Virus record (IMG/VR): IMGVR_UViG_3300028883_000046
Location: 11,718 to 75,717 of that record
From: a virus
Reading direction: 5' to 3' (one strand)
DNA length: 64,000 bases
Shown: positions 934 through 26,725 of the stretch, in pieces
Numbering within the stretch: position 1 is the first letter of the stretch
Layout: every line of letters begins with the position of its first letter
Notes under the pieces: generated by a model
Databases searched by the model: none
What the model was told of the DNA's origin: nothing
Seen by the model: the letters and a program-made list of their open reading frames with translations, nothing else
Translations under genes and position numbers: made by a program

Positions 934-1509
934 ATGGAAGATGCCCATAGTACTTCTCTATATGCGCCTGCCGGAAGAGGTATCTTGTGGATCGCGGAAT
1001 GGGACGGTACCACACCGCCCACTGATCCTACAGATTATACCGAAATCGGTAACTGCCCGTCGTTTGAAGCGGAACCGACGGTAGAGCGGCGCCCACACTA
1101 TTCAAGCCGGTCGGGTCTTCGCACAAGAGATCTTAACCCAATCGTCCAAACGGAATACAATATTACTTTCGAATGCGACGAACTATCGGCGAAGAACCTT
1201 TCAAGATTTTTCCTGGGTACGTTGAACACTACCACAGGCAGAATCGCCGGGCTTCAAAACGCGGACAAAGAATACGCCTTGAAGTTCGTTTCCGACAACC
1301 CAATCGGGCCGAATGCTACCTATTACTTTCATCGGGTAACAATTGGTCCAAACGGATCTTTGCAACTTATCGGCGATGATTATCTGGTCATGAGCTTTAC
1401 CGGTGAAGGTCTTGCGGACGTGGCAAATCATGCTTCCAGCCCGTACTTCGATATCGCTTACCAGACCACGACCACCACGACAACTTCTACTACCAGCACA
1501 ACCGCTTAA
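934..1509 (+). CDS. Major tail tube protein with C-terminal poly-Thr tail
   Basis: ATG 934 after GGAGGA; 'EIGNCPSFE', 'LQLIGDDYLVMSFTGE' tube-like motifs; ends TTTTTTTSTTSTTA; precedes chaperone and tape measure. Confidence 0.8.
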   Translation: MEDAHSTSLYAPAGRGILWIAEWDGTTPPTDPTDYTEIGNCPSFEAEPTVERRPHYSSRSGLRTRDLNPIVQTEYNITFECDELSAKNLSRFFLGTLNTTTGRIAGLQNADKEYALKFVSDNPIGPNATYYFHRVTIGPNGSLQLIGDDYLVMSFTGEGLADVANHASSPYFDIAYQTTTTTTTSTTSTTA

Positions 1510-1537
1510 TCAGTGAAGCGGTTATAGGGAGTAAAAC

Positions 1538-1936
1538 ATGAGGAAAAGAGAAGTCATTAAAATCGATGCCAGAGAGTATACCATTAAAGAACTTACGGTG
1601 GAAGAAATAATCGAGCTGACGCAAGGCTCGGTTTTCTTCTCTGATACGTTAAAAGGTAATGAAAAACAAAAACTGCCGGACAGTGACGAAATCGGAAGAG
1701 TTAAGGGAGATCTTAAAAGAGTAATGGAGAAATGTTGTGATTTTACTCCCGACGATCTTGTAAAGCTCGCGCCATCAGAGATCAATACCCTTTACGATAA
1801 ATTCAAGGAAGTAAATTCCGATTTTTTATCTTTTCTAAAAACGATGGGAGTAACAGAAATCCTGGGAAATATAAAAGAGCTGGTACTCAATCGCTTTTTA
1901 AAAACGCTTGTCACCTCATTGAGGCAGGACACTTAA
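1538..1936 (+). CDS. Tail assembly chaperone (gpG-like)
   Basis: Between tube and tape measure; 'YTIKELTVEEI'; slippery heptamer near the 3' end. Confidence 0.75.
   Translation: MRKREVIKIDAREYTIKELTVEEIIELTQGSVFFSDTLKGNEKQKLPDSDEIGRVKGDLKRVMEKCCDFTPDDLVKLAPSEINTLYDKFKEVNSDFLSFLKTMGVTEILGNIKELVLNRFLKTLVTSLRQDT
1897..1903 (+). promoter_or_regulatory. -1 programmed ribosomal frameshift site T TTA AAA
   Basis: In-frame X XXY YYZ heptamer; the -1 frame stays open to TGA 2086-2088, just before the tape measure ATG. Confidence 0.8.
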
Positions 1937-2088
1937 ACGTTTTTCAGTATGGCTTCTCATATTTTCTCCATGCTTTAAACGAGCACCAAATCATCATGAA
2001 TATAGAAAGAAAAAACATTGCCATAGCATTTAGAGTAGCACGTTATGCCACGCCAAGGGAATGGAAGAAATTCATGAAAAGGAAGTGA
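1903..2088 (+). CDS. Tail chaperone frameshift extension (gpGT-like, ~183 aa fusion with 1538 ORF)
   Basis: -1 frame reads NACHLIEAGHLNVFQYGFSYFLHALNEHQ...WKKFMKRK*; fills the gap; absent from the ORF track. Confidence 0.75.
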   Translation, partial: NACHLIEAGHLNVFQYGFSYFLHALNEHQIIMNIERKNIAIAFRVARYATPREWKKFMKRK

Positions 2089-2092
2089 AGCA

Positions 2093-4960: not shown

Positions 4961-4972
4961 GGAGAAAACAAA

Positions 4973-6277
4973 ATGACTTTAAATGGAAAAACAACTTCTG
5001 GATCGGTTACTTCTTTTGCGGGCGCCACTGGTTTACTTCAAGCGCTACTTGACTTTGTTTCCGGTACAAAGTTAGAGGATCAAGCAACCGCAGGATCAAG
5101 TGTTGGACCGTATACCGATACGTTATCAACTCCCGTTGGTTTAGGATCAGTATTGATGAAGTATACCATTTCAGGTCTTGACTATACAGCAAGAGACGAT
5201 GGTGTTGGAGCTATAACGGGAGATTATATAGACTCTGCCTCAATCAACTATGATACAGGCGCATTAACCGTCACTCTTACAACCACACCGGATGCAAACC
5301 CAACTTATGACTATGTATATGGCGAAGACGGCGGCGATTGGGAAGTAAAGATAAATCGAAATACAAGAAATGGTAACAAAACCTCTCCCTCGGAACCATT
5401 TGGAAGTAATTGTAAGGAAGTAATTCTACATAATAGAGGATTGAGCGGTGCAGAAAATATCTTGATCGGTATAAGAGAGTGGCAATATGTAGCGGCTAAC
5501 GCATCTGGCTGGGATCTAACAGGCTTTACTTCTTATTCGGACGGCATGTATTTCGGTAGAACTTTTGAAGACCTTAGTTTAACCTATGATACTACCTGGA
5601 ACTGTTTTGAAAACGCTCCCAAACTACCGCTAATTGACGATACAATTTACTATTGGTTTTTCAGCAATAGGCAAAGAATAATAGTTATTGCGAAAGTTCA
5701 AAGTAATTACGAATCAATCTATCTTGGATTTGCCAATAGATATGGAAACCCAGAAGACTATCCTTATCCGCTCGTTATAAAAGGGAGCTTGTACGGGAAG
5801 AAAACCATTACAGAAACATCAGAGGCAAGCCATGCATTTATTCCCTATAGTACAACTTCCGGAACCAATATGCTTCATAATGTTTTGCCAGATGGTTCTT
5901 GGTCGTTGAATTGGGGAGCTTTTTCTTCGAATTACGCCACAATCCTTTTCCCTGTGTGCAATTGGAATTCTTCCAGTAGATTACTATCCGAAACACCGAA
6001 CAAAAAAGAAGTACTTCTATCACCTGTTATGTCCCTTAGCTTGGCAAATAATTCTGTACTGCATGAACTTGATGGTGTTCTACATGCGGCCGGCGTTGGC
6101 GTTCAATCTGAGGACGAAATCAGAGGGCACGATGGCATAAAATACTTGGCATTTCAAAATATATCGAGGATCGATTACGATGATTTTATGGGAGTAGCAA
6201 ATGAGGATTATACATCTACTTCCACAACAACCACAACGACGACCACGACCACGCTAACAACAACTACTACCGAATAA
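4973..6277 (+). CDS. Virion structural (tail) protein with C-terminal poly-Thr tail
   Basis: Follows tape measure; 'YWFFSNRQRIIVIAKV..YESIYLG' resembles YuA-like virion proteins; ends TSTSTTTTTTTTTTLTTTTTE. Confidence 0.65.
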   Translation: MTLNGKTTSGSVTSFAGATGLLQALLDFVSGTKLEDQATAGSSVGPYTDTLSTPVGLGSVLMKYTISGLDYTARDDGVGAITGDYIDSASINYDTGALTVTLTTTPDANPTYDYVYGEDGGDWEVKINRNTRNGNKTSPSEPFGSNCKEVILHNRGLSGAENILIGIREWQYVAANASGWDLTGFTSYSDGMYFGRTFEDLSLTYDTTWNCFENAPKLPLIDDTIYYWFFSNRQRIIVIAKVQSNYESIYLGFANRYGNPEDYPYPLVIKGSLYGKKTITETSEASHAFIPYSTTSGTNMLHNVLPDGSWSLNWGAFSSNYATILFPVCNWNSSSRLLSETPNKKEVLLSPVMSLSLANNSVLHELDGVLHAAGVGVQSEDEIRGHDGIKYLAFQNISRIDYDDFMGVANEDYTSTSTTTTTTTTTTLTTTTTE

Positions 6278-10291: not shown

Positions 10292-13231
10292 ATGGCTGTA
10301 TATCTACTCGTTATTGCGTTGGTAGTACTTGCAGCCGGTTTGTATATGGCTTCAATGAACCAACCAGATCAAAATCAGCAGGACATGGCTCCGAACGGGA
10401 TTGACTCTTTCAAGGCAACGACAAACCAGGAAGGAGCAGTAGTTCCCGTTATGATAGGTGAAGGAAGACTTTCTGCCAATTTACTTTGGTTTGGAAATCT
10501 TGTAACAGAAGAAATTGTAGAAGAGATGGAAACGGGAGGCAAGGGCGGAGGAGGTGGCGGAAATGAGGACGTAGTAACAGGCTATAGATATTATATGGAT
10601 GTTTGGGAAGCAATTTGTGTTGGGCCAGATGTAGAAATAGTCCAAGTTTTCCAAAACGACAAACCAATAAATCTTATTGGAACCTTAAACCCTGGAGATA
10701 CTCTTTACTTCCCAACCGAGGCTGGTCAATACTCTGCGCCTTTAAATCCTGTAGCGCATGTTTTTATGAGCCGTCAATGGATAGGAGATAATGTAAGCTC
10801 CGTTCCAACTTATCACTGGGCAGTAAAGAAAACAAGCAATGCGCCTTTAAATCATGCGAACCTAACGAATGGTACAAACCCTGCGGCCGCAATATATGAC
10901 ATTTTGATAATGTCTGGAACCAAGGCTTCTTCTTTTGTTTTAAGTTCTTTCCAGGATGCCGCGGACTACTGGTACGATAAGGGCTATGGAATAAATCTTG
11001 CTTTGAACAAACAAGAAGAAACAAGGAATATTATAAAAAGAATTTTTACCTATGTTGATGGAAATTTGAGAGTAGATAACCAGGACAGATTTGAATTGGT
11101 CGCCTGGAAAGATACGGATACCTATCAATATGAAATTGACGAAGAAGACCTAAAAGATTTTAATTTTAGGAGAAGAAGTTGGTATGACGTATATACCGAC
11201 TTTAGAGCCAATTTTATTTACAAACAAAAGAATTACACCCAAAGAACTTTACGGGTAAGAAATACTGCCGTTAAAGATATCATTGGGCAAGACAAACAAA
11301 TTACTATTGACCTAACCGCTTTCAACGATATAACTGCCGCCTCGAAAAGACTTTGGGAGTTAATGAAACAACTATCCTATCCAGAAGCGGAAGCCTCTGC
11401 CAAGGTTAGTTTAAAATATTCAAAAGTAAAAGTTGGTGACGTTGTTAGAGTAAGTTACTCTCCATATGAAATAACAAACATGGATTTTAGAGTAATAGGG
11501 ATTGACGTAGCAAAAGCAGATAGTAATGAAATCTCTTGGAACATGCGCCAATTGACTACTACTCTATTTGATACGAATTTTGGATTGGGCGGTGAGCCGC
11601 AATGGGTCGAACCCGACTACTCACCACAAGAGCCTTTGGACGTAGAGTTTTTCGAGCTTCCATATACTTCCAGAATTGAATATGACTACACAGCTAAATT
11701 TAGAGTTTCCTATTTGGTACTTGTAGCAAGAGCAGGAAACGAAACGGGCTTTCAAGTTCATACTTCCGGAAGCGGAAGTAATTACTCAAGAGCCCAAACC
11801 ATGTCAACGTTCTCTCAGGTAGGAACGCTTGACGAAGATTATCCGGCAGACACTTACAGTATTGACGACGAAACTGGAATTCTTTACACTCCCGAAAGAG
11901 AGGACCCGAAGTTTGGGAGTCTTTTCAGAAATGAACTTTTTACAAAGTTAAGATTTGCAATTATAGACGAAGAGATTCTTGCCTTTCAAACTGTAGATTA
12001 CGAGGGAGAAGAAAGTATCAGGCTAACGGGAGTAATTCGCGGCATACTAAATACACCCATAGAAACACATACCGCAGGATCGAAGATATGGATAACAAGT
12101 TTCAGAAATAATATTTTAAGTGAGACCGAATATCACGAGTTTAATGCCAAGGTAGTAACCACTTTTGGAGGCGAAGTATTTGATATATCCGAAGTATCGC
12201 CAATTACTGTTACAGAAACGCAGAAAGCCGCGCAACCTTGGACGCCTTGGAATGCTTATGCAGAAAGAGACGGCGTAACCATTAACGTTACCGTGGCGCA
12301 CACCACAAAGGCTACAGATGGCGCTGGTGTACTTCCCGCAGAATCGCAAAAAACAGTAGAAAAGCAATTAGCCGAAGGGTTTGTCCTTTGGTGGACAAGT
12401 GTTGACTCTACCGTAAATGAAGAGAGATATGGGAAGTTCGACTATATCAACGGCTCGGCCGGAAATCATACTCTTTACATAGCTCAAATAAACAGCCTTG
12501 GATTCCAAACGGACACAATAGAGATAGTTGTTGGTCCTGACGATGGCGACTATTTCTGCGACGATCACTTGACCGAAAATTATTCTTTCGAAAAAATTCA
12601 ATATGGTTCGCAAAACTGGATCGATATTATGAACAGGAACGCAACCAGATTGAATGACGAAGTTTTGAAAATTTCAGGATTGATTGACGTTGATTTGTCC
12701 GGTATAGCTGATACAAATGCAATAGCCTGGAATAGTACTTCCGAGAAATACGAGCCGGTCGACTGGTTAACAACGTTCCCGACTTCTACTACTACCAGCA
12801 CTACCAGCACAACCAACACGCAGTCAACCACAACCAACACACAGTCTACCACAACGTCAAGTACTTCGACCACAACGTCAAGTTCCAGCACAACCAACAC
12901 GCAATCGACCACAACGTCAAGTACTTCGACAACGACCGAGTCGCAAACGTCAACCTCGACTGTTACCAACACGGGGACAACGACAACCAACACGCAATCG
13001 ACAACGAGTAGTAGTTCAACGACAACGACTCAAACCAGCTCTACCAGTACGACTTCTACCAGCACGACAACAACCAACACGGTAACAGAAAGTACTTCTA
13101 CCTCGACCACAAGTACCAGCTCTTCCAGCACGACAACAACAACGACGCCTCCTGGCGCGGGCGGAGCCTATGAGGGCGAAGACGTTATGAGTGATGCATT
13201 TTATATTGATGGGATTATGATCCCAGCCTAA
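10292..13231 (+). CDS. Large tail tip / central fibre protein with mucin-like Thr/Ser-rich C-terminal region
   Basis: 'EGAVVPVMIG', 'GGKGG', 'NPAAAIYDIL', 'LTGVIRGILNT...H.AG' GTA-like tip motifs; Thr/Ser tract 12770-13147. Confidence 0.85.
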   Translation: MAVYLLVIALVVLAAGLYMASMNQPDQNQQDMAPNGIDSFKATTNQEGAVVPVMIGEGRLSANLLWFGNLVTEEIVEEMETGGKGGGGGGNEDVVTGYRYYMDVWEAICVGPDVEIVQVFQNDKPINLIGTLNPGDTLYFPTEAGQYSAPLNPVAHVFMSRQWIGDNVSSVPTYHWAVKKTSNAPLNHANLTNGTNPAAAIYDILIMSGTKASSFVLSSFQDAADYWYDKGYGINLALNKQEETRNIIKRIFTYVDGNLRVDNQDRFELVAWKDTDTYQYEIDEEDLKDFNFRRRSWYDVYTDFRANFIYKQKNYTQRTLRVRNTAVKDIIGQDKQITIDLTAFNDITAASKRLWELMKQLSYPEAEASAKVSLKYSKVKVGDVVRVSYSPYEITNMDFRVIGIDVAKADSNEISWNMRQLTTTLFDTNFGLGGEPQWVEPDYSPQEPLDVEFFELPYTSRIEYDYTAKFRVSYLVLVARAGNETGFQVHTSGSGSNYSRAQTMSTFSQVGTLDEDYPADTYSIDDETGILYTPEREDPKFGSLFRNELFTKLRFAIIDEEILAFQTVDYEGEESIRLTGVIRGILNTPIETHTAGSKIWITSFRNNILSETEYHEFNAKVVTTFGGEVFDISEVSPITVTETQKAAQPWTPWNAYAERDGVTINVTVAHTTKATDGAGVLPAESQKTVEKQLAEGFVLWWTSVDSTVNEERYGKFDYINGSAGNHTLYIAQINSLGFQTDTIEIVVGPDDGDYFCDDHLTENYSFEKIQYGSQNWIDIMNRNATRLNDEVLKISGLIDVDLSGIADTNAIAWNSTSEKYEPVDWLTTFPTSTTTSTTSTTNTQSTTTNTQSTTTSSTSTTTSSSSTTNTQSTTTSSTSTTTESQTSTSTVTNTGTTTTNTQSTTSSSSTTTTQTSSTSTTSTSTTTTNTVTESTSTSTTSTSSSSTTTTTTPPGAGGAYEGEDVMSDAFYIDGIMIPA
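12770..13147 (+). repeat. Degenerate coding repeats (TTNTQS, TTTSSTS units) forming a Thr/Ser tract
   Basis: Repeated ACCAACACGCA and ACCACAACGTCAAGT blocks across 126 codons. Confidence 0.85.
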
Positions 13232-13257: not shown

Positions 13258-14526
13258 ATGACGTTTAAAAGACTTGTTGCCTACAATGCTTCAAACACCG
13301 CCGACTTCTGCGAACAAATGAAGGATCTCATGGTTGCCGCTGGTTGGACTCTTCATGATGATTTGTCTTCTGCTACACCACCAAGATATATTATGAAGAC
13401 AAATGGTGAAGCACCCGAAACAAAGTGTCCTTGCTATCTTGAAATAAAATGGGACGCAAGTTATGCCGATAAAATTTCCATGTTGATGTACCTCTATTGG
13501 AATAACTCTACTCATTCGGGAGTAGTACAAATTGGATCTGAAACTGGCAACTATATGTATTCGGACGACGATGCTTCCTTTTATGGGTGGATTTATACAA
13601 GTAAAGATTTTGTAATCATCATAACAAAAATTGGCGCTACCTACTATGGAGGTTGGTGCTCACGTTTCCAGCCTGGATATCAATTTATTGGTTTTCTACA
13701 GTCAAGCGCTTCTGCGGGATCGAGTGTTACACTTCAACTTGGAAAAGGACAAACACGCGGAGCAGTAGTTGGCGCGAAGTGTATGGTGGTATGTTACGAT
13801 GGCACAGTTGGGAGAGATCACGATTGCGAAATTACTGCCGTTGACGATGATAACAACCAAATAACGGTTGACGCTTTAACCTATACTTTCCCTGCGGGAT
13901 CCTCGGTTGGATTTGTTCCCTATCCTTGGTTGTTATCCAGATTTTCGAATAGTGCTTCTCAATACAGCCTTTGGGGTGCTTCTGGAACGAGCGCATACAC
14001 TACCGGTGGAAATGCTCTTCAAACTTTGACCTATCAATATGTTGATCCAGAAGAGTTAACCGGAATGTATATGCTTCTTCCTTATTGTTTGCTTCGCTCC
14101 GGTGCTGGGTATGCCGGATTTATAGATAGATGGTTGCTCGGCGATGCTTTTACAACAAGCTCTTATGAAGACACAGTAGGAGTGGGAGTAATTCAGGGAG
14201 ACACGGTAGCAACTGGTGGTGGAAGTAATACTCTTGCCGATACAAATCAATCTTGGGAAGTTGATGCTCTCATTGATTATGCCGTGATTATCATATCAGG
14301 CACTGGTGCTGGTCAAATTAGGACGATTTCTGATAACACGGCAATAGGATTGACGGTTGACGATAATTGGAGCGTACAGCCAGACAGTACTTCCCATTAT
14401 ATTATTTGTAGCGAAGCCTATAGACACTTTGGCTTCAACTCTACTTCCTATTCGAAAAGTATATTTGAAGGCGGGCATTATACCCCCGCATTGTGTTATG
14501 AAATTACGACAACCACTACCGTTTAG
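13258..14526 (+). CDS. Virion structural / fibre-like protein ending in a short Thr tail
   Basis: 'LMVAAGWTLHD' N-terminus; 'IISGTGAGQIRTISDNT'; ends ITTTTTV. Confidence 0.6.
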   Translation: MTFKRLVAYNASNTADFCEQMKDLMVAAGWTLHDDLSSATPPRYIMKTNGEAPETKCPCYLEIKWDASYADKISMLMYLYWNNSTHSGVVQIGSETGNYMYSDDDASFYGWIYTSKDFVIIITKIGATYYGGWCSRFQPGYQFIGFLQSSASAGSSVTLQLGKGQTRGAVVGAKCMVVCYDGTVGRDHDCEITAVDDDNNQITVDALTYTFPAGSSVGFVPYPWLLSRFSNSASQYSLWGASGTSAYTTGGNALQTLTYQYVDPEELTGMYMLLPYCLLRSGAGYAGFIDRWLLGDAFTTSSYEDTVGVGVIQGDTVATGGGSNTLADTNQSWEVDALIDYAVIIISGTGAGQIRTISDNTAIGLTVDDNWSVQPDSTSHYIICSEAYRHFGFNSTSYSKSIFEGGHYTPALCYEITTTTTV

Positions 14527-18908: not shown

Positions 18909-20369
18909 ATGAAAAAAGATCACAAAACAATCGGCATTTTTACCAACTTCCAAGAATTCAAACCAGGATACAGCCTTACAGGCATTGCGGTAGATCAAGC
19001 GTTAATGCTTCTCAGAAACGGCCACAAAGTTTGCATGTTTGTCAACGAGCGTTTCAACAAGGAGAAAAACAAAGAAGCCGGCATCCAATTCCTCGAGGAC
19101 ACCTATCCAAATCTTTTCTTCGTTATCAAAAAATCGAAATTCATGCATTTGACCGATTACGAAACCCAAACGACCTTGTCCGAGAGTCATAAAAGAGACT
19201 CGATTATTGCCGCTCAGATGTATACGGAAGAAATAGTAAAACACGACATTGACATATGTTATACCCACGATTTTATATTTGTAGGCTGGAATCTCCCTTA
19301 CTCTCTTGCAGTAAAAGCGGCCGATAATATGTTGAAGAAAATCGGCAAGATGGTTTATTGGCTTCACTGGATCCATAGTGTACCTTCGCCCGAGGGTAAA
19401 GACTGGTGGGATATCAATACTTATGGTGATAACCATCTTATTGTGTTCCCAAACAATGTTGAAGTCGTGAGAGTGGCAGAGAGTTTCAATACAAACCCTT
19501 CCAGAATAAGAATTATTCCTCATATAAAAGATATTCGATCCTGGTATGAATTCTCTCAAAATTCATGGAATTTTATTGATCGGTATCCAAATATACTTCA
19601 ATCAAATGTGGTTCAAGTCTATCCTTGCTCTACCGATAGACTTTCAGCCAAACAGCTTGAGCTTGTTATAAAGATCTTTGGCTATATGAAGAAAGCAAAG
19701 GTTAAAGTCTTCTTGTGTGCCGCGAATCAATGGGCTACCGGTCGTCATAGAAAAGAAGACGTAAACAAATATATTGATTTGGCTGAATACGTCGGTCTCA
19801 GATATGGCGAGGATTTTGTTTTTACTTCCGAATATTCGACAAATCAAAATCTATCCAAAATCATAAAATCCGCAAGTGATTTTGAAGACCTTGAGGTTGA
19901 TCTAAATCTGGGAGGTTATCCAGAAGTAAGCAAAACCATTAACAAAGAAAAGGATTTCGAAGAAGAGAAAACAAGACTTTTAGAAATACTTCAACCTTAT
20001 TCCACAGGCATCGATAAAAGAATGCTTAGGGAACTGCAATTACTTTCGAACGTTTTTATCTTTCCTACAAGAGAAGAAAGCTTTGGGCTTGTTGGTCCTG
20101 AAAGTTCTTTTTCAGGTGCTCTTGTTGTTTCAAACAAAAGCCTATCAATGATGTATGAAGTATTAGGCACGATGGCCCCAGCTTTTGAATTCGGGTCACA
20201 CCATCAAACGACTCCCGCAGTAAAGAGCGAGAAATACATTAAAGGCGTATCCTTTGCCATCCTAAATCGGATCTATTCAAACGAGGCAATTATGACCAAG
20301 ACCTATACAAAAAATCGTTACAATATGGATTCGATTTATCAAAGATACTATCTTCCTTTCGCAGTATAA
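18909..20369 (+). CDS. Glycosyltransferase, GT-B fold (GT4-like)
   Basis: 'VFIFPTREESFGLVGPESSFSG' E-x7-E motif; 'GHKVCMF'. Confidence 0.8.
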   Translation: MKKDHKTIGIFTNFQEFKPGYSLTGIAVDQALMLLRNGHKVCMFVNERFNKEKNKEAGIQFLEDTYPNLFFVIKKSKFMHLTDYETQTTLSESHKRDSIIAAQMYTEEIVKHDIDICYTHDFIFVGWNLPYSLAVKAADNMLKKIGKMVYWLHWIHSVPSPEGKDWWDINTYGDNHLIVFPNNVEVVRVAESFNTNPSRIRIIPHIKDIRSWYEFSQNSWNFIDRYPNILQSNVVQVYPCSTDRLSAKQLELVIKIFGYMKKAKVKVFLCAANQWATGRHRKEDVNKYIDLAEYVGLRYGEDFVFTSEYSTNQNLSKIIKSASDFEDLEVDLNLGGYPEVSKTINKEKDFEEEKTRLLEILQPYSTGIDKRMLRELQLLSNVFIFPTREESFGLVGPESSFSGALVVSNKSLSMMYEVLGTMAPAFEFGSHHQTTPAVKSEKYIKGVSFAILNRIYSNEAIMTKTYTKNRYNMDSIYQRYYLPFAV

Positions 20370-20394: not shown

Positions 20395-21084
20395 ATGCTA
20401 ATTGCTCTTATCCCAACTATGGATGTTGCCGGGTCTTTGCCTTTGGTCCGAAGTATTTTGAATTGCAAAGACAGACCAGAAGAGACCTATATCATAAATA
20501 ACGGTAAGCGAGTAGGTGAGCAAGTAATCAAAGATGTTCAATCAGGCATCTGTTTAATACAATTTGATAAAAACATAGGTGTGAATGCTTCTTGGAATGT
20601 CGGCTTGAATATTGCAGAAGACAAAAAGGCTCACTTGTCTATCCTGAATGATGATATCCAAATCAAATACACTTTTTTTAGCCGAATTAGAAAACTACTT
20701 CGCACCGATAACCACACTCCTGTTTTTTGCCCAAGTACTATTCACGATCTTGATAAGTTTTTTAACCTTCCAAGTTTTTCTACTGCGCCAAGTAGCATAA
20801 CCACTATGCGGCGCAAAGAGGGTTGGGCATTTACGATAAGAGATTCCTACGTTAAAAAAATACCTGCAATCCCAAAAGAACTTTTTACTTTTTGCGGTGA
20901 TGATTGGATTTGGGATCATACGGTTTCCTATGGCGGTAGATGGATAAAAGATATAAGTAATGTTATCTATCATCGCATTGGAAAAACATTGCGGCAAATG
21001 CCAGAATTGAGATCCCGATTGAGAGAAGAAAAACAAATTTACAAAAGAATAAAACAAAAGGGAAAGCACTCATGGGAAGAGTAA
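20395..21084 (+). CDS. Glycosyltransferase, GT-A fold (GT2-like)
   Basis: 'NIGVNASWNVG', 'ILNDDI', 'FCGDDW'. Confidence 0.75.
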   Translation: MLIALIPTMDVAGSLPLVRSILNCKDRPEETYIINNGKRVGEQVIKDVQSGICLIQFDKNIGVNASWNVGLNIAEDKKAHLSILNDDIQIKYTFFSRIRKLLRTDNHTPVFCPSTIHDLDKFFNLPSFSTAPSSITTMRRKEGWAFTIRDSYVKKIPAIPKELFTFCGDDWIWDHTVSYGGRWIKDISNVIYHRIGKTLRQMPELRSRLREEKQIYKRIKQKGKHSWEE

Positions 21085-21587
21085 CGATGGGTAGACATAG
21101 CTATGGCAAGATAAAAGTAATTGGACAACGTTGCCATGTATATGTTGGCCGATTTACTTCAATTGCCGACGATGTAAAGGTAATTACTTTAGGTCACGAT
21201 CCTAAAAACGTTTCTACCTTTCCATTCAATAAATTTAAAGGTTGGGATAGAGCATTAAACTCTACTACCCATCCTAAAGTTTATGGTGACGTTCAAATTG
21301 GTCACGATGTTTGGATCGGATATGGTAGTACTATTATGGGAGGCGTGAAAATCCTTGATGGTGCTATAGTTGCCGCTGGTTCAGTAGTAATAAAGGACGT
21401 TTCTGCTTATTCTATTGTGGGAGGTGTTCCTGCTCAACATATAAAGTGGCGCTTTCCAATCGAGGATATTCAAACTCTTCTAAAAATAAAATGGTGGGAT
21501 TGGGAGGACGATAAAATAAGAACAAATGCAGATATACTTTGTTCGCATAATATCGATTATTTTTTAACCACACATGGAGGGAAGTAA
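21072..21587 (+). CDS. Hexapeptide-repeat O-acetyltransferase (CatB/Vat-like fold)
   Basis: 'IGHDVWIG', 'GAIVAAGSVVIKDV..YSIVGGVPA', 'IKWWDW'. Confidence 0.85.
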   Translation: MGRVTMGRHSYGKIKVIGQRCHVYVGRFTSIADDVKVITLGHDPKNVSTFPFNKFKGWDRALNSTTHPKVYGDVQIGHDVWIGYGSTIMGGVKILDGAIVAAGSVVIKDVSAYSIVGGVPAQHIKWRFPIEDIQTLLKIKWWDWEDDKIRTNADILCSHNIDYFLTTHGGK

Positions 21588-21588
21588 A

Positions 21589-22257
21589 ATGGAAGAAGCG
21601 CCCAAAAAATTCAAAACGCCGAAGCAATACAGGGAAATGGAATTCAGACAACTACTTGTAGAGCTAACAAAACTTTTGAAGCCTAAAGTCTATGTGGAGA
21701 TTGGCATTAAAAAGTGTTATACTTTTAACCAAATCTCACCGCTTGTAGATTTGGCAATTGGCGTTGATATCAACGAATCAAGCTGGCAGTATATGGAAAT
21801 AGCAAAAGAAAATGATATCTTTCTTTGCATGGATAGTAAAGGGTTTGCCGAATGGGTTAAGCAATATAAGCCGGAACTTAAAATCGATTTTCTTTTTATC
21901 GATGGCGACCATCACCATGAAGCTATTCTGGACGATATCGATGCCTGTATTGGTCTTCTCAAGCCTTATGAAAGCATGGTTTTCCTTCATGATACATATC
22001 CTGCGAACGAAAATTTATTGGCAAAGGGATATTGCTTCGATGCATGGAAAGCCGCAAGCTTCATTCGAAAGTTCGCAAAAGACGATTTTGAAATAACTAC
22101 TTTGCCTGGACCCTGGGCCGGTATGTCAATACTTCGATTCGCGCCAGATTACTGCCATGGCTGGATGGAAGAGGACATATCGAAAATGTTCCAAAAACAA
22201 AAATATTACAACGAAAGGAAAACTACACTTGGTAAATTTAACCCTTCGGATTTGTGA
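21589..22257 (+). CDS. Class I SAM-dependent methyltransferase
   Basis: 'VYVEIG', 'IDFLFIDGDH', 'FLHDT'. Confidence 0.75.
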   Translation: MEEAPKKFKTPKQYREMEFRQLLVELTKLLKPKVYVEIGIKKCYTFNQISPLVDLAIGVDINESSWQYMEIAKENDIFLCMDSKGFAEWVKQYKPELKIDFLFIDGDHHHEAILDDIDACIGLLKPYESMVFLHDTYPANENLLAKGYCFDAWKAASFIRKFAKDDFEITTLPGPWAGMSILRFAPDYCHGWMEEDISKMFQKQKYYNERKTTLGKFNPSDL

Positions 22258-22284: not shown

Positions 22285-22464
22285 TTGATAGCGTTAACCG
22301 CATTACTTCTCGGATTTGTGATAGGTCTCTTGATAGCAACAACAAGATTTAAGGGAAATGCTTTCAAGGAAAGTTATTTTCAATTTAGAGATGGCAAATA
22401 TAAAGTGGTAAAACTTGATAGCTTGGAATCGATTGAGCTATTGGAAAGGATAAACGTGGTATGA
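22285..22464 (+). CDS. Small membrane protein (59 aa, not in ORF track)
   Basis: AAGGAG RBS, TTG start, hydrophobic N-terminus; TGA overlaps next ATG. Confidence 0.55.
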   Translation: MIALTALLLGFVIGLLIATTRFKGNAFKESYFQFRDGKYKVVKLDSLESIELLERINVV

Positions 22465-23579
22465 AAGTAGTATTTCTTTTCATGTCGCAAGGGTGCGCCT
22501 CGCCAGGTTCTACAGAAAGAACTTATCCAAAACATCAGTGTGGTACGAAGTATATGGATGATTTTGCGGGCGAGGGATATTTTAAACTTCTTGACGCCTT
22601 GGTTAAAAACGAGACGATAACAGATTTAAAGATATTTTTTGAATCAAACGTCCAACCGGGTCTCGCAAGTTGGGTAACGGGCGAAAACGTATATTGCGAA
22701 GTAATTCCCGAAATTCGGTTTGTGGAAGAGTATATTGACAAAGACACGATTATCTTTGCAAGAGGCGGGTTTAAACATTGGCATGATTTTCTTTTGAAGT
22801 ATAAAGGCAAAAACTGGCTAATGCTTTATGCCGCTAATACTGGTAGACAACGGTGGACGTTCTGGGATATTATCCTTGACGATTTGAGAGATTTTCACTC
22901 GATTGATAAGTACGGAAGATATTACTTCCCTTTCGTCAAGCCTATCAATGAGGATATGTTCTATCCAAAAAACGATACGCCTATTGAATGGGATTTTTGT
23001 ATTGGTGCCTCCCATATTCATGATCGAAAAGGACAGTGGAGAGCATTAGAAGCAATTATTGAGTATAACAGAAAGTATGGTGAAATCAGAGCCGTTATGC
23101 CTGGTGCGCCAAGAAGAAGTATAAAGACTCATGAAATGCTTTTAAGATTAGATGAAATGCGATGGGTAGAAACTCCCGGTCATGTTCACAGGACGCAACT
23201 TAGGGAGATATTGAATGGGTCGAAGTATTTCATTCATCTTGGCGCGCACGGTCAAAACGATAGAGGCCCGCTTGAAGCTCTTGCCTGCGGTACTTCAACC
23301 ATAATTGCTTCTCCAGGTTATCATGCTCCCTTTCTAACGGATTGTTGTTTTACTGGTTGCAATCTTGACGATAAGGAATCAATTGCCAACAGTATGCATT
23401 TTTTAAGAAATGCCTGGACGCCTCAGGACAAAATAAAAACGTATAACTTCTACAAGAAAAAAAGCGGATTTGAAGGAGTGGTGATTCCAAAAATGACCTC
23501 CCTATTTTCTTTGCTTTCGATGGCACATCCTTGTTTGCAAGCAAAGAAAGAAATAAGACAAATCTTTTTGGAAAGGTGA
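22461..23579 (+). CDS. Glycosyltransferase, GT-B fold
   Basis: 'RKGQ', 'QNDRGPLEALACG', 'LREILNGSK'. Confidence 0.65.
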   Translation: MKVVFLFMSQGCASPGSTERTYPKHQCGTKYMDDFAGEGYFKLLDALVKNETITDLKIFFESNVQPGLASWVTGENVYCEVIPEIRFVEEYIDKDTIIFARGGFKHWHDFLLKYKGKNWLMLYAANTGRQRWTFWDIILDDLRDFHSIDKYGRYYFPFVKPINEDMFYPKNDTPIEWDFCIGASHIHDRKGQWRALEAIIEYNRKYGEIRAVMPGAPRRSIKTHEMLLRLDEMRWVETPGHVHRTQLREILNGSKYFIHLGAHGQNDRGPLEALACGTSTIIASPGYHAPFLTDCCFTGCNLDDKESIANSMHFLRNAWTPQDKIKTYNFYKKKSGFEGVVIPKMTSLFSLLSMAHPCLQAKKEIRQIFLER

Positions 23580-23584
23580 CAATT

Positions 23585-24184
23585 ATGAACAACCTGCATA
23601 GTCTTTACAACGAAAGTTTTTTTTATCGAAGAAAAAATCTTTTGTGGCGCGCACCCATCCTATGTGACATAATCAAAAGAGTATTTCCAAACATGATTAG
23701 CGTTATAGATGTCGGATGCGCTATTGGCGAGTTTGTTCAAGAGTTTCAAAACATGGGAATGGTCGCCATGGGTATTGAGGGAAGCACAAGTGCCAAAAAG
23801 TACTTCTTGCCTGATATTCATGTATCCTTGTGGGATATGAGGCAAATGCTACCTCCATCAAAGGTTAACTTTTATGATCTTTGTATGTGTCTTGAGGTTG
23901 CGGAGCACATAGAAGAAGAGTATTCCGATATATTTGTTAACAATCTATGTAGCCTATCAAAGACTGTTTTAATATCTGCCGCAGTACCAGGACAACAAGG
24001 TCATGGCCATTTTAATTGCCAACCAAACGAGTATTGGGAAATAAAATTTGGTATAAGAAAGTACAAAAGAAATTGCGACAAAGAAAATCAATTCAGGCAA
24101 TTGCTTGAGAAGTACAAGACTAAAAAAGGATTAAACGCCTATTATTCAAATACAATGATCTATGAAAAGAAAATAGGTTTTTAA
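23585..24184 (+). CDS. Class I SAM-dependent methyltransferase
   Basis: 'VIDVGCAIG', 'CLEVAEHI', 'SAAVPGQQGHGHFNCQ..YW'. Confidence 0.8.
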   Translation: MNNLHSLYNESFFYRRKNLLWRAPILCDIIKRVFPNMISVIDVGCAIGEFVQEFQNMGMVAMGIEGSTSAKKYFLPDIHVSLWDMRQMLPPSKVNFYDLCMCLEVAEHIEEEYSDIFVNNLCSLSKTVLISAAVPGQQGHGHFNCQPNEYWEIKFGIRKYKRNCDKENQFRQLLEKYKTKKGLNAYYSNTMIYEKKIGF

Positions 24185-24204
24185 GACTGAAAGGAAGACC
24201 TAAA

Positions 24205-24483
24205 ATGATTAAAGTAAATCCTAAAGTTTGTAAAAGGTGCGCACGACATAATCTTGCCTGGATGGCTACCGCACGACAACCGTTATCAATGATAAAGCTT
24301 AGGTATAGAATGCTTTTGGAATGCTCAAGAGCATTACTTCGCAATTTAACATTGCCGTGCCCGGTTGTTTTCTTTAGGGACGAAGAAGTAAATCCATATG
24401 GTTATTCAAAATTGTCTTCGCTAACAGGTAGTGTTCCTCGTTGGTGCCCATATGCAGTACAACATAAATACGAAATTTTTTGA
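24205..24483 (+). CDS. Hypothetical Cys-containing protein
   Basis: AAGGA RBS; CxxC and WCPY. Confidence 0.5.
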   Translation: MIKVNPKVCKRCARHNLAWMATARQPLSMIKLRYRMLLECSRALLRNLTLPCPVVFFRDEEVNPYGYSKLSSLTGSVPRWCPYAVQHKYEIF

Positions 24484-24505
24484 ATAGAAAAAGGAGAGAA
24501 TATCA

Positions 24506-25312
24506 ATGGAGAACCATCAGAAATTTGACTTGACCTGTACGGCAACCCTGAGGCCCGAGCTTTTGGATATTACTCTTTCAACATTTACAAAGAATTTTTT
24601 TAGAGAGAGGATAAGTTGTGCGAGGCTTATAATCAACATTGATATGGCAGGTGTTGAAGAAGAAAGAGAAAAGCAAGAGAAGTATCAGGATGTTTTGTCC
24701 ATCATAGAAAAGTATCCGTTTTATGAGAAAGAAATTAGAGTTGGGAACGATCCTCACTTCCCAACAGCCTTTTGTTGGTGTATGAGCGAGCTTGAAAACG
24801 AATACTTTTTTCATCTTGAGGAAGATTGGCGAATGTTGATACCTCTTGACTTTGAAGAAATGTGGACCATCTTTTCCAAATATGAAACCTTGGCCCACCT
24901 TCGTTTGTCGCAATTTAAAAGCGAAGAAAAAGAGTGTAAGAATTGGAACAAATTCCTACCCTGGAATGGCGAGTTTTTCGAAGTGAAAGAAGAAGAGAAG
25001 GGAGTTATTGGCTGGGCTGGTCACCCTTCGTTGAATAGATCCTCGTTTATGAAGGAGTGTTTGAAATACATTGACCCTATGGTTAATCCAGAGAAGCAAA
25101 TCAAAGGGAGAAGATATACCCATCCTATGAATGAAATACTTTCATGGCACAGATTTGGTAGCTATCACCCGCAAAATTCTGCTCCCGCAATTATGGATAT
25201 CGGCAGAAACTGGATGATTCAACATGGGTGGATCAAAGAAGGTTCGAAAGCATTTTTCACAAACTGGATTAAAGAGAAGAAAGATTATGAGGATTACATT
25301 TTGGAAACATAG
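24506..25312 (+). CDS. Putative glycosyltransferase, GT-A fold
   Basis: 'TATLRPELL..TL', 'YFFHLEEDW', 'HPSL'. Confidence 0.65.
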   Translation: MENHQKFDLTCTATLRPELLDITLSTFTKNFFRERISCARLIINIDMAGVEEEREKQEKYQDVLSIIEKYPFYEKEIRVGNDPHFPTAFCWCMSELENEYFFHLEEDWRMLIPLDFEEMWTIFSKYETLAHLRLSQFKSEEKECKNWNKFLPWNGEFFEVKEEEKGVIGWAGHPSLNRSSFMKECLKYIDPMVNPEKQIKGRRYTHPMNEILSWHRFGSYHPQNSAPAIMDIGRNWMIQHGWIKEGSKAFFTNWIKEKKDYEDYILET

Positions 25313-25478
25313 ATTTGGAATGTTTACCTTCACAGTAAAAGAGTTTCGGTGCTGTGGAAACGTATGGCAACTACTGCTTTCCAAAAACTGGCCAGAAAGA
25401 TATCTTTGGAAGCCAAGATGCCCAACATGCGGTAAACCCATAAGAAGAAGGAAGAAAAGAAATGGGAAACGAGGTTAA
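25287..25478 (+). CDS. Small Zn-ribbon-like hypothetical protein
   Basis: CC...CPTCG. Confidence 0.4.
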   Translation: MRITFWKHRFGMFTFTVKEFRCCGNVWQLLLSKNWPERYLWKPRCPTCGKPIRRRKKRNGKRG

Positions 25479-25647
25479 CAAACAATTGATTTTTGATATT
25501 AAACAGTTGATTACCAAATATGAAAAAGAAATGGGAGGATTGAGAATAAAAGAAATTCACATATTCTGGAATAATCATGGCGTAGACAATCTTTTATTTA
25601 TCACATCCGCAGTCAAGAATCTATCGTTACACCCAAAACAATTTTAA
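25462..25647 (+). CDS. Hypothetical protein
   Basis: 61 aa ORF within the operon. Confidence 0.4.
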   Translation: MGNEVNKQLIFDIKQLITKYEKEMGGLRIKEIHIFWNNHGVDNLLFITSAVKNLSLHPKQF

Positions 25648-25663
25648 AAAAGGAAGGCTAAAA

Positions 25664-26725
25664 ATGAAAAAAGATCTATCTATTATTATCCCTTTCGTTG
25701 GTGAGTATCCCCAGGTACTCTTTACTATCCAATCTATTGCCCAAAGTCTTTTAGGATCGTCAATTGATTTTGAGATAGTAGCCGTCAATAACTATTGCTT
25801 AAAGGTTCAAGACCAGGCAAGAATTGCGGCAGAAAAACAAATGAAAGTACTTTGGCAAAAGATCTTTAATGATAACGAGGAATTTTGTGTTGAGGACATA
25901 TACTCAATTCGAAAAAATACCATGCCAACATTCGAAGACAAAAGCGGCCCTGCGATTGCGGCTTGCGTGAAGGGAAACGAGTGGTTGAAGTATATTCACT
26001 ATGACGAAAGATTGTCACACTGGCAAGCCAAAAGAGCAGGGGTTGACGCCTCAAGCGGCCAGGTTTTAATGTTCGTTGACGCGCACACAACGCCTTCACA
26101 CAATGCAATCGAAGGAATGTATAATGCATATACCACAAACTATTCGAAGCTTGGATCGATTCATCTTCCTTTGACATACAAGATCCTTGAGTGGCATAAA
26201 TTGATTTATAAGCCTCTTGTTGAAGAGAAATACTTCTACTCCTATAAATTTACAGGGTTTAGGGAATCGCCCGACCCTTATGAGGTAGCTTGTATGTCTA
26301 CTTGTGGCATGATGATAGATAGAGATATTTATGACGCAATTGGCGGTTGGCCAGTTGGTCTGGGAGTATACGGAGGTGGCGAGAATTTCATGAATTATAC
26401 TTTGGCAGTATGCGGCTACAAGAAGTATATATATCCTGATGGAATTCTTTTTCACCATGGAGAGAAAAGAGATTACCATTATTACTATGACGATTTTGTA
26501 ACCAATAGGCTGATAGCTCATTATTTGTTTGGCGGAAAAGATTTGCTTCACAAACTTAAAACAGTAATGAAAGGAAGACCAGAGACTTTGGAAATGTTTT
26601 GCCATGAAGTAGAAAAACAACATTCCGATCAAAGGCAAAAAATAAAAGCAATTCAAAAAGAGAACGTAGAAGACTGGATAAAAGCATGGTACAAACAAGA
26701 CGAGGGAGAAGAAAATGGACTTTAA
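25664..26725 (+). CDS. GT-A glycosyltransferase with ppGalNAc-T-like motifs
   Basis: 'LSIIIPF', 'SGQVLMFVDAH' (DxH), 'IDRDIYDAIGG...YGGGEN...VCG'. Confidence 0.8.
   Translation: MKKDLSIIIPFVGEYPQVLFTIQSIAQSLLGSSIDFEIVAVNNYCLKVQDQARIAAEKQMKVLWQKIFNDNEEFCVEDIYSIRKNTMPTFEDKSGPAIAACVKGNEWLKYIHYDERLSHWQAKRAGVDASSGQVLMFVDAHTTPSHNAIEGMYNAYTTNYSKLGSIHLPLTYKILEWHKLIYKPLVEEKYFYSYKFTGFRESPDPYEVACMSTCGMMIDRDIYDAIGGWPVGLGVYGGGENFMNYTLAVCGYKKYIYPDGILFHHGEKRDYHYYYDDFVTNRLIAHYLFGGKDLLHKLKTVMKGRPETLEMFCHEVEKQHSDQRQKIKAIQKENVEDWIKAWYKQDEGEENGL

What the first reader, a model, noticed from the sequence alone, without database searches (positions are those of the whole stretch)
934..26725. Candidate phage-encoded mucin-type O-glycosylation system: poly-Thr tags on virion proteins plus a glycan-building cluster
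Seen: four virion proteins carry Thr-rich tracts at or near the C-terminus: tail tube (1465-1506, TTTTTTTSTTSTTA), 4973 ORF (6212-6274, TSTSTTTTTTTTTTLTTTTTE), tail tip (12770-13147, 126 codons mostly Thr/Ser) and 13258 ORF (ITTTTTV). Thr codons are mixed (ACC/ACG/ACA/ACT), which points to selection on the protein rather than DNA slippage. I saw no such tracts in the replication arm. The same strand carries 5 GTs, 2 SAM methyltransferases and an O-acetyltransferase (18909-26725). Established: some mycobacteriophages glycosylate capsid and tail tube proteins with their own GTs, and Thr/Ser-rich tracts are classic O-glycan acceptors. Inference: poly-Thr is a portable acceptor tag, and the virion is coated with a methylated/acetylated glycan brush for shielding, adhesion or host-surface mimicry.
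Basis: partly seen in the sequence, partly recalled or inferred. Interest (0 to 1): 0.92.

Follow-up and report, generated by a model that had tools for sequence, protein, structure and literature searches.

The report
Phage mucin-like sugar-coating system
An uncultured marine-sediment phage ends six of its particle proteins in threonine-rich tails and carries a sugar-building gene cluster whose key enzyme looks like the animal enzymes that start mucin glycosylation. The particle is therefore probably sugar-coated, though nobody has measured this.

Summary
All four Thr/Ser tracts lie where stated and use mixed Thr codons. Two more tailed proteins lie in the head module just upstream of the window: a 73-aa protein after the major capsid gene and a 52-aa protein. 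That gives 6 of 49 late-arm genes against 0 of 56 replication-arm genes.

The tail is a conserved trait. Of the 120 best tube homologues, 117 end in a poly-Thr tail or, in a few, a Ser-rich one. Tail type (poly-T, poly-S or S/E/A) matches between tube and head mini-protein in 39 of 40 genomes.

The cluster holds five glycosyltransferase-fold proteins, two methyltransferases and a hexapeptide acyltransferase. All are soluble, and there is no flippase or lipid-carrier machinery.

The conserved enzyme at 25664-26725 is specifically similar to polypeptide GalNAc-transferases (GT27). It scores Z 26.8 against them and 19 against other GT-A folds, and keeps an invariant DxH...H triad and a GGGEN motif. 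It has no lectin domain.

Every near-complete phage genome checked with this enzyme has poly-Thr proteins (16 of 16, 13 of them in lineages with a different tube family). The reverse does not hold: only 4 of 34 poly-Thr viral records carry the enzyme.

Verdict: a probable phage-encoded mucin-type virion O-glycosylation system and a new variant of the mycobacteriophage precedent. It is unproven biochemically. This scan has noted similar tag-plus-GT patterns on other DNA.

The parts
934..1509 (+). Major tail tube protein with a 14-residue C-terminal poly-Thr/Ser tail (1465-1506)
   Evidence: It matches phrog_807 at E 9e-31. Of the 120 best homologues, 117 end in a poly-Thr or Ser-rich tail. The tail starts where Chi-like relatives carry an Ig-like domain.
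4973..6277 (+). Structural protein (phrog_687-like) ending in a 20-residue Thr-rich tail (6212-6274)
   Evidence: Syntenic tailed homologues occur in 17 of 22 related loci that cover the position.
10292..13231 (+). gpJ-like tail-tip protein with a 126-residue mucin-like Ser/Thr tract (12770-13147), followed by a 27-residue ordinary end
   Evidence: It matches phrog_1101 at E 2e-73. The tract is 85% S+T with degenerate 60-bp repeats.
13258..14526 (+). Tail-fibre-region structural protein (phrog_687-like) ending ITTTTTV
   Evidence: Relatives G002 and G003 have tailed proteins in the same region.
18909..20369 (+). Soluble GT4-type (GT-B, retaining) glycosyltransferase, the conserved first gene of the cassette
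   Evidence: The AlphaFold model has pLDDT 93 and its best matches are BshA and MshA. It occurs beside the GT27-like gene in 58 of 72 loci.
20395..21084 (+). GT-A glycosyltransferase with an invariant DD, a variable cassette member
   Evidence: A profile of 19 homologues matches chondroitin synthase at E 2.6e-5. It is present in 20 of 72 loci.
21072..21587 (+). Hexapeptide-repeat acyl/acetyltransferase
   Evidence: Pfam Hexapep, E 2e-9.
21574..22257 (+). SAM-dependent methyltransferase (Methyltransf_24)
   Evidence: Pfam, E 2.7e-6, above the curated cutoff.
22461..23579 (+). GT-B glycosyltransferase
   Evidence: A profile matches WbaZ-1 mannosyltransferase at E 6.7e-6. It also matches phrog_2170. 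It is present in 37 of 72 loci.
23531..24184 (+). SAM-dependent methyltransferase (Methyltransf_23/11)
   Evidence: Pfam, E 1e-5. It is present in 40 of 72 loci.
24506..25312 (+). GT-A-fold protein with no Pfam match
   Evidence: The Atlas structure search finds GT2 clusters at TM 0.65-0.80. It is present in 40 of 72 loci.
25664..26725 (+). Lectin-less, soluble GT27-like (polypeptide GalNAc-transferase-like) enzyme, the candidate initiating O-glycosyltransferase
   Evidence: A profile search of the PDB gives best hits that are nearly all ppGalNAc-Ts, the top one at E 2.4e-4. The Foldseek list of top PDB matches is entirely ppGalNAc-T, E 2e-15. VIA-align gives Z 26.8 and 25.4 against 19 for other GT-A folds. 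D139, H141, G237-E240, H264, H265 and R269 are invariant.
26715..27101 (+). Conserved 128-aa protein of unknown function at the end of the cassette
   Evidence: It is present in G001-G003 and in 27 of 72 loci. It has no family match.

Best explanation
This is a phage-encoded, cytoplasmic, mucin-type O-glycosylation system for the virion.

Late in infection, the soluble GT27-like enzyme (25664-26725) would transfer a first sugar from a host UDP-sugar onto the hydroxyls of the poly-Thr/Ser tails. By analogy the sugar is probably a HexNAc. The chemistry would be Mn-dependent through the DxH...H triad and retaining.

The tails sit on exposed parts of at least six virion-module proteins: a head mini-protein, a 52-aa protein, the tail tube, the 4973 protein, the tail tip and the 13258 protein.

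The conserved GT4-type enzyme (18909) and the variable GT-A and GT-B enzymes (20395, 22461, 24506) would extend the glycan. The two methyltransferases and the hexapeptide acyltransferase would cap it. The result would be a dense, hydrated glycan brush on head and tail. On the tube it occupies the place where related phages display an Ig-like domain.

What is shown: the tails, their conservation and concerted type, the enzyme folds and motifs, and the co-occurrence. What is inferred: that the tails are the acceptors, which enzyme initiates, the identity of the sugar, and the biological role.
For: 1. The tails are real, restricted to virion-module genes and beyond chance. They are encoded by mixed codons.
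2. The tube tail is conserved in 117 of the 120 best homologues down to 52% identity. Tailed head mini-proteins occur in 35 of 41 related loci, and tailed homologues of 4973 in 17 of 22.
3. Tail type is concordant between tube and mini-protein within a genome: poly-T with poly-T, poly-S with poly-S, S/E/A with S/E/A. Of the 42 loci compared, 40 have an intact tube end and 39 of those agree; L048 has a mixed S/T tube end beside a poly-T mini-protein. All five clearly non-T tubes are matched. This points to a common constraint on all tails.
4. The tube tail begins exactly where Chi-like tube proteins carry an external Ig-like domain.
5. The 25664 enzyme is specifically GT27-like by sequence profile, by Foldseek and by an independent aligner with a 7-unit Z gap over other GT-A enzymes. 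Its metal-binding and Gal/GalNAc-T motifs are invariant.
6. No cassette protein has a membrane segment. No flippase, polymerase or lipid-carrier enzyme was identified among the genes annotated.
7. All 16 GT27-like-bearing genomes that are at least 90% complete have poly-Thr proteins. This includes 13 lineages lacking this tube family. Clear ...TTTTTA/TAP C-terminal tails were read in G012 and G020.
8. Tail-less tube relatives G006-G008 have no GT27-like gene, no GT4-like gene and no poly-Thr.
9. Among 401 genomes of the phylum of a Desulfobacteraceae MAG, the enzyme occurs only in the MAG that holds a binned phage contig.
10. There is a precedent: mycobacteriophages glycosylate the C-termini of capsid and tail tube subunits with their own glycosyltransferases (Freeman et al. 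2023, as cited in PMC12619734 and PMC12363180).
Against: - There is no biochemical or proteomic evidence. No RNA or protein data bear on it.
- Identity to ppGalNAc-Ts is only 13-17%. The best sequence E-value is 2.4e-4. Fold similarity does not fix the acceptor.
- Only 4 of 34 viral records with long Thr-codon runs carry the enzyme, so poly-Thr does not require it.
- Relative G004 keeps its tails and the GT4-like gene but lacks a detectable GT27-like gene. It has another GT-A with a Glyco_transf_7C motif instead.
- The tail-less contrast genomes are only 45-61% complete.
- A divergent thymidylate-synthase-like gene in this genome leaves a DNA-modification role formally open.
Confidence: 0.65

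Rival explanations
1. The tails are glycosylated by the cassette, but the GT27-like enzyme is not the initiator. Another enzyme, such as the more widely retained GT4-type protein, adds the first sugar, and the GT27-like enzyme extends or branches the glycan.
For: G004 keeps its tails and the GT4-like gene but has no GT27-like gene. The GT4-like gene lies beside the GT27-like gene in 58 of 72 loci. Serine-rich repeat proteins of Gram-positive bacteria are initiated by a GT4 enzyme, GtfA (from my own knowledge).
Against: The GT4 model matches generic BshA/MshA-type enzymes, not GtfA. The GT27-like fold is the only one with a specific link to peptide acceptors. G004 has a substitute GT-A with a GT7/GT27-type C-terminal motif.
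Confidence: 0.12
2. The tails are unglycosylated hydrophilic spacers or brushes. The cassette instead modifies a host envelope glycan, for example for superinfection exclusion or receptor masking.
For: Poly-Thr tracts are common in viral proteins that lack this enzyme: 30 of 34 records. Phage glycosyltransferases that alter host polysaccharides are well known (PMC12619734).
Against: No cassette protein has a membrane segment, and none is a flippase or lipid-carrier enzyme. No integrase or lysogeny module turned up among the genes annotated. The cassette sits at the end of the late operon. The enzyme strictly accompanies poly-Thr proteins across unrelated lineages, and tail type is concerted; this reading leaves both unexplained.
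Confidence: 0.12
3. The cassette hypermodifies phage DNA by glycosylating hydroxymethyl-pyrimidines, and the tails are unrelated to it.
For: A divergent thymidylate-synthase-like gene at 30039-30785 (-) could be a pyrimidine hydroxymethylase. Phage glycosyltransferases that glycosylate DNA are known (Pyle et al. 2024, as cited in PMC12619734).
Against: The TS-like gene is absent from G002 and G003, which keep the GT27-like gene, the GT4-like gene and the tails. The cassette is co-oriented with structural and lysis genes, not with replication genes. The closest structures are protein-acting enzymes.
Confidence: 0.05

Closest known systems
Mycobacteriophage virion glycosylation (Che8, Corndog, Myrna; Freeman et al. 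2023, Cell Host Microbe, known here only through citing papers PMC12619734 and PMC12363180)
   Same: Phage-encoded glycosyltransferases, with a methyltransferase-type domain, are thought to glycosylate the C-termini of exposed virion subunits, including the tail tube, inside the infected cell.
   Different: Che8 capsid and tube proteins end in ...NKTGS and ...YSDGS, with no poly-Thr tail. Che8 gp108-110 show no detectable similarity to any protein of this cluster. Here the capsid protein itself is untagged and a separate mini-protein carries the tail. At least six proteins are tagged. The host is not an actinobacterium; the phage comes from marine sediment and a close relative was binned with a Desulfobacteraceae MAG.
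Eukaryotic mucin-type O-glycosylation initiated by GT27 polypeptide GalNAc-transferases
   Same: The catalytic-domain fold, the DxH plus distal His metal triad, the GGEN-type Gal/GalNAc-T motif, and dense Thr-rich acceptor tracts. GT27 enzymes are known to prefer Thr over Ser (from my own knowledge).
   Different: There is no ricin-type lectin domain and no membrane anchor, and the enzyme would work in the bacterial cytoplasm rather than the Golgi. Identity is only 13-17%. The motif reads YGGGEN rather than WGGEN. Donor and acceptor are untested.
Serine-rich repeat protein glycosylation in Gram-positive bacteria (GtfA/GtfB plus extending glycosyltransferases)
   Same: Low-complexity Ser/Thr tracts are O-glycosylated in the cytoplasm by a set of soluble glycosyltransferases encoded next to the substrate.
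   Different: The GT4 enzyme here resembles BshA and MshA rather than GtfA. There is no accessory Sec system. The substrates are virion proteins.

Membership tests
GT27 polypeptide N-acetylgalactosaminyltransferases | GT-A catalytic domain closest in structure to ppGalNAc-T catalytic domains | tested here: met
   The Foldseek list of top PDB matches is entirely ppGalNAc-T, E 2e-15. VIA-align against 48,161 chains gives GalNAc-T1 Z 26.8 (289 residues aligned, rmsd 3.1) and TgGalNAc-T3 Z 25.4. The next family scores Z 19.0.
GT27 polypeptide N-acetylgalactosaminyltransferases | DxH metal-binding motif (rather than DxD) plus a distal His ligand | tested here: met
   D139-A-H141 aligns with the DSH/DAH motif of GalNAc-T10 and T7. 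H264 aligns with the His of VGHIFRKR in PGANT9. All are invariant in 30 homologues.
GT27 polypeptide N-acetylgalactosaminyltransferases | Gal/GalNAc-T motif (WGGEN) | tested here: met
   YGGGENF at residues 236-242 aligns with WGGEN/WGGEQ. G237-E240 are invariant. The Trp is replaced by Tyr. One long homologue carries a precomputed Pfam Glyco_transf_7C hit.
GT27 polypeptide N-acetylgalactosaminyltransferases | C-terminal ricin-type lectin domain | tested here: not met
   The protein is 353 aa and ends after the catalytic domain. Only one longer homologue was found, and it has no lectin family hit.
GT27 polypeptide N-acetylgalactosaminyltransferases | Type II membrane anchor and luminal location | tested here: not met
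   There is no hydrophobic segment. The first beta-strand of the GT-A fold starts at residue 5.
GT27 polypeptide N-acetylgalactosaminyltransferases | Significant sequence-level family membership | tested here: inconclusive
   The profile gives E 2.4e-4 to GalNAc-T10 and 0.004 to T9 and T4. The single sequence gives only E 0.06-0.2. Pfam reports only Glycos_transf_2. No CAZy classifier was available.
GT27 polypeptide N-acetylgalactosaminyltransferases | Transfer of GalNAc from UDP-GalNAc to the Ser/Thr of a polypeptide | not testable with these tools
   This needs an enzyme assay.
Actinobacteriophage (Che8-type) virion glycosylation | Glycosyltransferases homologous to Che8 gp108-110 or Corndog gp38 | tested here: not met
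   BLASTP of Che8 gp108-110 against all cluster proteins gives no hit better than E 0.19. A tblastn of the 25664 protein against 50,697 phage records finds only one weak Tunturiibacter phage hit.
Actinobacteriophage (Che8-type) virion glycosylation | Acceptor sites at the C-termini of the major capsid and tail tube subunits | tested here: inconclusive
   The tube has a C-terminal tail. The capsid protein ends ...KITSLATS with no tail, but the adjacent 73-aa protein is tailed. Whether any of these is an acceptor is untested.
Serotype-converting or O-antigen-modifying phage GT systems (Gtr-type) | Membrane flippase, a bactoprenol-linked GT and a membrane-embedded serotype-specific GT | tested here: not met
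   No cassette protein has a transmembrane-like segment. No such family was hit.
Phage DNA glycosylation systems | A pyrimidine hydroxymethylase conserved alongside the glycosyltransferases | tested here: not met
   A TS-like gene is present in G000 and G001 but absent from G002 and G003, which keep the core glycosyltransferases.
SRRP GtfA/GtfB O-GlcNAc initiation | A GT4 enzyme specifically similar to GtfA | tested here: inconclusive
   The best Foldseek matches of the 18909 model are BshA, MshA and other generic GT4 enzymes. GtfA is not among the listed top matches.

The most novel reading that the evidence does not exclude
A mobile 'virion mucinisation' cassette circulates among several lineages of uncultured tailed phages. 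Its initiating enzyme is a true polypeptide HexNAc-transferase homologous to eukaryotic GT27. Poly-Thr C-terminal tails act as a portable acceptor tag that can be attached to any exposed virion protein. The variable middle genes (methyl-, acyl- and possibly sulfo-transferases) diversify the glycan. If so, this would be the first mucin-type O-glycosylation outside eukaryotes and their viruses, and it would reopen the question of where GT27 enzymes came from.
Probability: 0.5. Interest if true: 0.88.

Novelty: new variant of a known kind. Interest (0 to 1): 0.75.

Why it matters
By experiment, virion glycosylation by phage enzymes is known only for mycobacteriophages. If the reading here is right, three things follow.

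- The practice is widespread in environmental phages of other hosts. The tube family alone has 281 homologues at E <= 0.001, and the enzyme family has 548.
- It uses a different enzyme family that looks like the animal mucin-initiating enzymes.
- It relies on a simple, transferable sequence tag.

That would matter for phage surface biology, including stability, adhesion and evasion of recognition, and for the evolutionary history of GT27. It would also be of practical use as a small soluble enzyme-plus-tag pair for making mucin-like glycoproteins in bacteria.

The hypothesis can be tested directly with two genes and a peptide.

Tried and rejected
Searches and tools that gave nothing useful:
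- Megablast of 20 kb of the window against cultured phages found no match.
- A single-protein search of viral contigs with the tail-tip protein found no relatives.
- Freeman et al. 2023 is not held in the paper library, so its details come only from citing papers.
- Single-sequence PDB searches for 18909, 24506 and 20395 were uninformative.
- The Atlas search for 20395 failed twice because the machine was busy. A profile search replaced it.
- No tRNA genes were found.
- No RNA holder was listed for the cluster, so nothing can be said about expression.
- Literature searches for GT27 or ppGalNAc with phage, and for threonine-rich tails with O-glycosylation in phages, found nothing relevant in the held library.
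- BFVD holds only unnamed GT-A proteins of uncultured phages as matches.

Ideas considered and dropped:
- GtfA-likeness of the GT4 enzyme is not supported.
- Slippage-generated tracts are rejected because the codons are mixed.
- Poly-Ser in the replication arm is the antisense of Asp/Glu coding.
- A host assignment from prophages is not possible. Only two hits occurred in 185,579 species genomes, and the close one is a whole phage contig binned into a Desulfobacteraceae MAG.

Full report
CONTEXT. The window is bases 11718-75717 of a single 75,717-bp virus record. Runs that hold it come from a marine-sediment metagenome. The + strand carries a lambda-like siphovirus late operon. Within the window this comprises the tube, chaperone, tape measure, gpL/K/J-like tail-tip genes, fibre-region genes, a lysis block and a glycosyltransferase cluster. 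Upstream of the window lie the terminase, portal, scaffold and major capsid genes. The - strand from about 27.2 kb carries replication genes: Pol III alpha, clamp, clamp loader, helicase, primase, RecA and nucleases. No cultured phage is close at the DNA level.

OBSERVATION. A six-frame scan of the whole genome added two more in the head module. One is a 73-aa protein directly after the major capsid gene, with a 32-residue Ser/Thr tail. The other is a 52-aa protein ending in eleven Ser/Thr residues plus Val. The capsid protein itself has no tail. With a simple gene call, 6 of 49 late-arm genes and 0 of 56 replication-arm genes have a Thr-rich run (Fisher p = 0.009). Chance predicts about 0.01 such runs in the genome. 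Thr codons are mixed and no codon repeats more than three times in a row. The tracts are therefore kept by selection on the protein, not made by slippage. The tail-tip tract is 126 residues, 85% Ser+Thr, with decayed 20-residue repeats.

THE TAILS ARE A CONSERVED, CONCERTED TRAIT. The tube protein has 281 homologues at E <= 0.001. Of the 120 best, which reach down to 52% identity, 117 end in a tail of roughly 4 to 37 residues. The tail is nearly always poly-Thr; in a few it is poly-Ser or a Ser/Glu/Ala mix. The three exceptions are two with only a short Thr run after an acidic stretch and one truncated protein.

In 61 IMG/VR loci built around tube homologues, three tailed genes recur in synteny. 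The tube is tailed in 50 of 55 loci. A small head protein about 2 kb upstream is tailed in 35 of 41. The homologue of ORF 4973 is tailed in 17 of 22. The head mini-protein has a conserved N-terminal domain of about 40 residues, followed directly by the tail.

Tail type agrees between tube and mini-protein within a genome. Of the 42 loci compared, two have tubes cut at contig ends and 39 of the other 40 agree; L048 has a mixed S/T tube end beside a poly-T mini-protein. All five genomes with clearly non-Thr tube tails have the same non-Thr type on the mini-protein. These few switches may be shared by descent. Even so, they show that tails on different proteins change together, as expected if one factor reads them all.

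The tube domain aligns with Chi-like major tail proteins up to residue 174-175. There those proteins continue into an Ig-like domain of about 105 residues. By analogy with lambda gpV, which I know from general knowledge, that position faces outward.

THE CLUSTER. None has a transmembrane-like segment. The family scans of the cluster and of the larger genes elsewhere identified no flippase, polymerase, lipid-carrier transferase or sugar-nucleotide pathway gene.

Comparison with three near-complete relatives (G001-G003) shows a conserved frame. The GT4-type gene comes first. The 25664 gene and a 128-aa unknown come last. The middle is variable: in other genomes it holds a GT9-methyltransferase fusion, further methyltransferases, hexapeptide transferases and sulfotransferase-like proteins.

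Across 72 IMG/VR loci holding a 25664 homologue, the GT4-type gene is within 10 kb in 58. The 23531 methyltransferase and the 24506 GT-A are each present in 40, and the 22461 GT-B in 37.

THE 25664 ENZYME IS GT27-LIKE. A single-sequence PDB search gave only weak hits, but five of the seven were polypeptide GalNAc-transferases, aligned on a DAH motif and a GGENF motif. A profile of 30 homologues raised GalNAc-T10 to E 2.4e-4, and eight of the twelve hits were ppGalNAc-Ts. An AlphaFold model (pLDDT 93.6) gave a Foldseek list of top PDB matches made up only of ppGalNAc-Ts, E 2e-15.

An aligner that does not depend on Foldseek, run against 48,161 chains, gave GalNAc-T1 Z 26.8 and Toxoplasma GalNAc-T3 Z 25.4. 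The next families scored Z 19.0 or less.

D139, H141, G237-E240, H264, H265 and R269 are invariant in the family. They align with the DxH, Gal/GalNAc-T and distal His/Arg elements of GT27.

The protein lacks the lectin domain and the membrane anchor. Only one longer homologue exists, and it has no lectin hit. I therefore call the enzyme GT27-like rather than a member of GT27.

It has no relative in cultured phages apart from one weak hit. BFVD offers only unnamed proteins. Among 401 genomes of the phylum of a Desulfobacteraceae MAG, only the MAG that contains a binned phage contig has it.

CO-OCCURRENCE. Going from enzyme to tails, 42 of 72 loci have a Thr-tract ORF on the same strand within 10 kb, and only one has such an ORF on the other strand. 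Of the 30 loci without one nearby, 11 have a run of seven Thr codons elsewhere in the record, including 4 of 4 that are at least 90% complete. The reversed-pattern control gave one hit. Only 2 of 15 near-complete GT27-like genomes in the sampled set have this tube family. All 13 others still have Ser/Thr-tract proteins. I read clear ...TTTTTA and ...TTTTTAP C-terminal tails in G012 and G020, and in G020 they lie on the strand opposite to the enzyme. With G001-G003, this makes 16 of 16 near-complete genomes.

Within the tube family, the distant tail-less branch (G006-G008) has no GT27-like gene, no GT4-like gene and no Thr runs, and its contigs span the syntenic region. These records are only 45-61% complete.

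Going from tails to enzyme, only 4 of 34 viral records with runs of at least eleven Thr codons have the enzyme. G004 keeps its tails and the GT4-like gene but has a different GT-A with a Glyco_transf_7C motif.

The enzyme therefore predicts the tails, but the tails do not predict this particular enzyme.

COMPARISON WITH THE KNOWN SYSTEM. Citing papers state that mycobacteriophages Che8, Corndog and Myrna glycosylate the C-termini of capsid and tail tube subunits using their own glycosyltransferases, which shields them from antibodies. I fetched Che8. Its capsid and tube end in ...NKTGS and ...YSDGS, without poly-Thr. Its gp108-110 share no detectable similarity with any protein here. The logic is the same, but the enzymes, the acceptor architecture and the host group differ.

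RIVALS.
- DNA glycosylation is weakened. The thymidylate-synthase-like gene is missing from G002 and G003, which keep the core enzymes and the tails.
- Host-glycan modification is weakened by the absence of any membrane component and by the cross-lineage link to tails.
- A variant in which the GT4 enzyme initiates remains open.

VERDICT. I rate it a new variant of a known kind of system, with a notable enzyme, at about 0.65 confidence.

Earlier notes of this scan describe similar poly-Thr-plus-GT patterns in other genomes: Enterococcus and Clostridium phages and other sediment phages. They also contain the same GT27 resemblance noted from memory for this gene. I tested that resemblance independently. 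The notes on other genomes I did not check.

Noticed in passing
window 16307-17104 (+): A protein with about four hydrophobic segments fused to a response-regulator receiver domain (Pfam Response_reg, E 8e-15) sits in the lysis block, between holin-like and lipoprotein genes. A 25%-identical homologue is in G002.
   Followed up: partly
window 41077-44475 (-): A DNA polymerase III alpha subunit (PHP, NTPase and finger domains) carries a uracil-DNA glycosylase superfamily domain at its C-terminus (residues 978-1115).
   Followed up: partly
window 30039-30785 (-): A divergent thymidylate-synthase-like protein. Only its C-terminal third aligns with ThyA (Pfam E 6.5e-6, PDB E 1.5e-4). It is present in G000 and G001 and absent from G002 and G003. 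It could be a ThyA variant or a pyrimidine hydroxymethylase.
   Followed up: partly
window 38770-38928 and 49398-49643 (- strand genes 38631-39929 and 49100-49942): Two replication-arm proteins have long poly-Asp/Glu tracts. The second alternates these with Lys-rich stretches. On the + strand the tracts read as poly-Ser.
   Followed up: partly
window 4973-6277, 6297-7214 and 13258-14526 (+): Three proteins all match phrog_687 ('structural protein'). Two are tailed and one (6297) is not, which suggests paralogous tail-associated proteins.
   Followed up: no
genome 7947-8447 (upstream of the window; L277:7947-8447): An endolysin-like peptidase (phrog_894) is encoded in the head module, between the 52-aa tailed ORF and the scaffold gene, far from the holin-like genes.
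   Followed up: no
L026, L034, L045 (poly-Ser) and L028, L029, L032 (Ser/Glu/Ala): Sub-lineages of the tube family have switched the tail from poly-Thr to poly-Ser or to an acidic Ser-rich type. Where the head mini-protein is also on the contig (all but L034), it has switched to the same type. These contigs are too short to show whether their glycosyltransferases differ.
   Followed up: partly
L275:5924-14471 (G004) and L080:14168-16898 (G003): Cassettes of relatives carry other tailoring genes. These include an NAD-dependent epimerase/dehydratase, sulfotransferase-like proteins, a GT9-methyltransferase fusion and extra hexapeptide transferases. Different phages would therefore make different glycans.
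   Followed up: partly
L134, L138, L140, L145 (contigs of 113-277 kb): In very large viral contigs, one of them a 277-kb record with terminal repeats, the GT27-like gene is followed directly by an ORF of 1,195-1,287 aa with a poly-Thr tract.
   Followed up: no
window 18099-18803 (+): A protein with a signal-peptide-like N-terminus and a weak DUF7015 match lies between the lysis genes and the cassette. A 33%-identical homologue is in G002.
   Followed up: no
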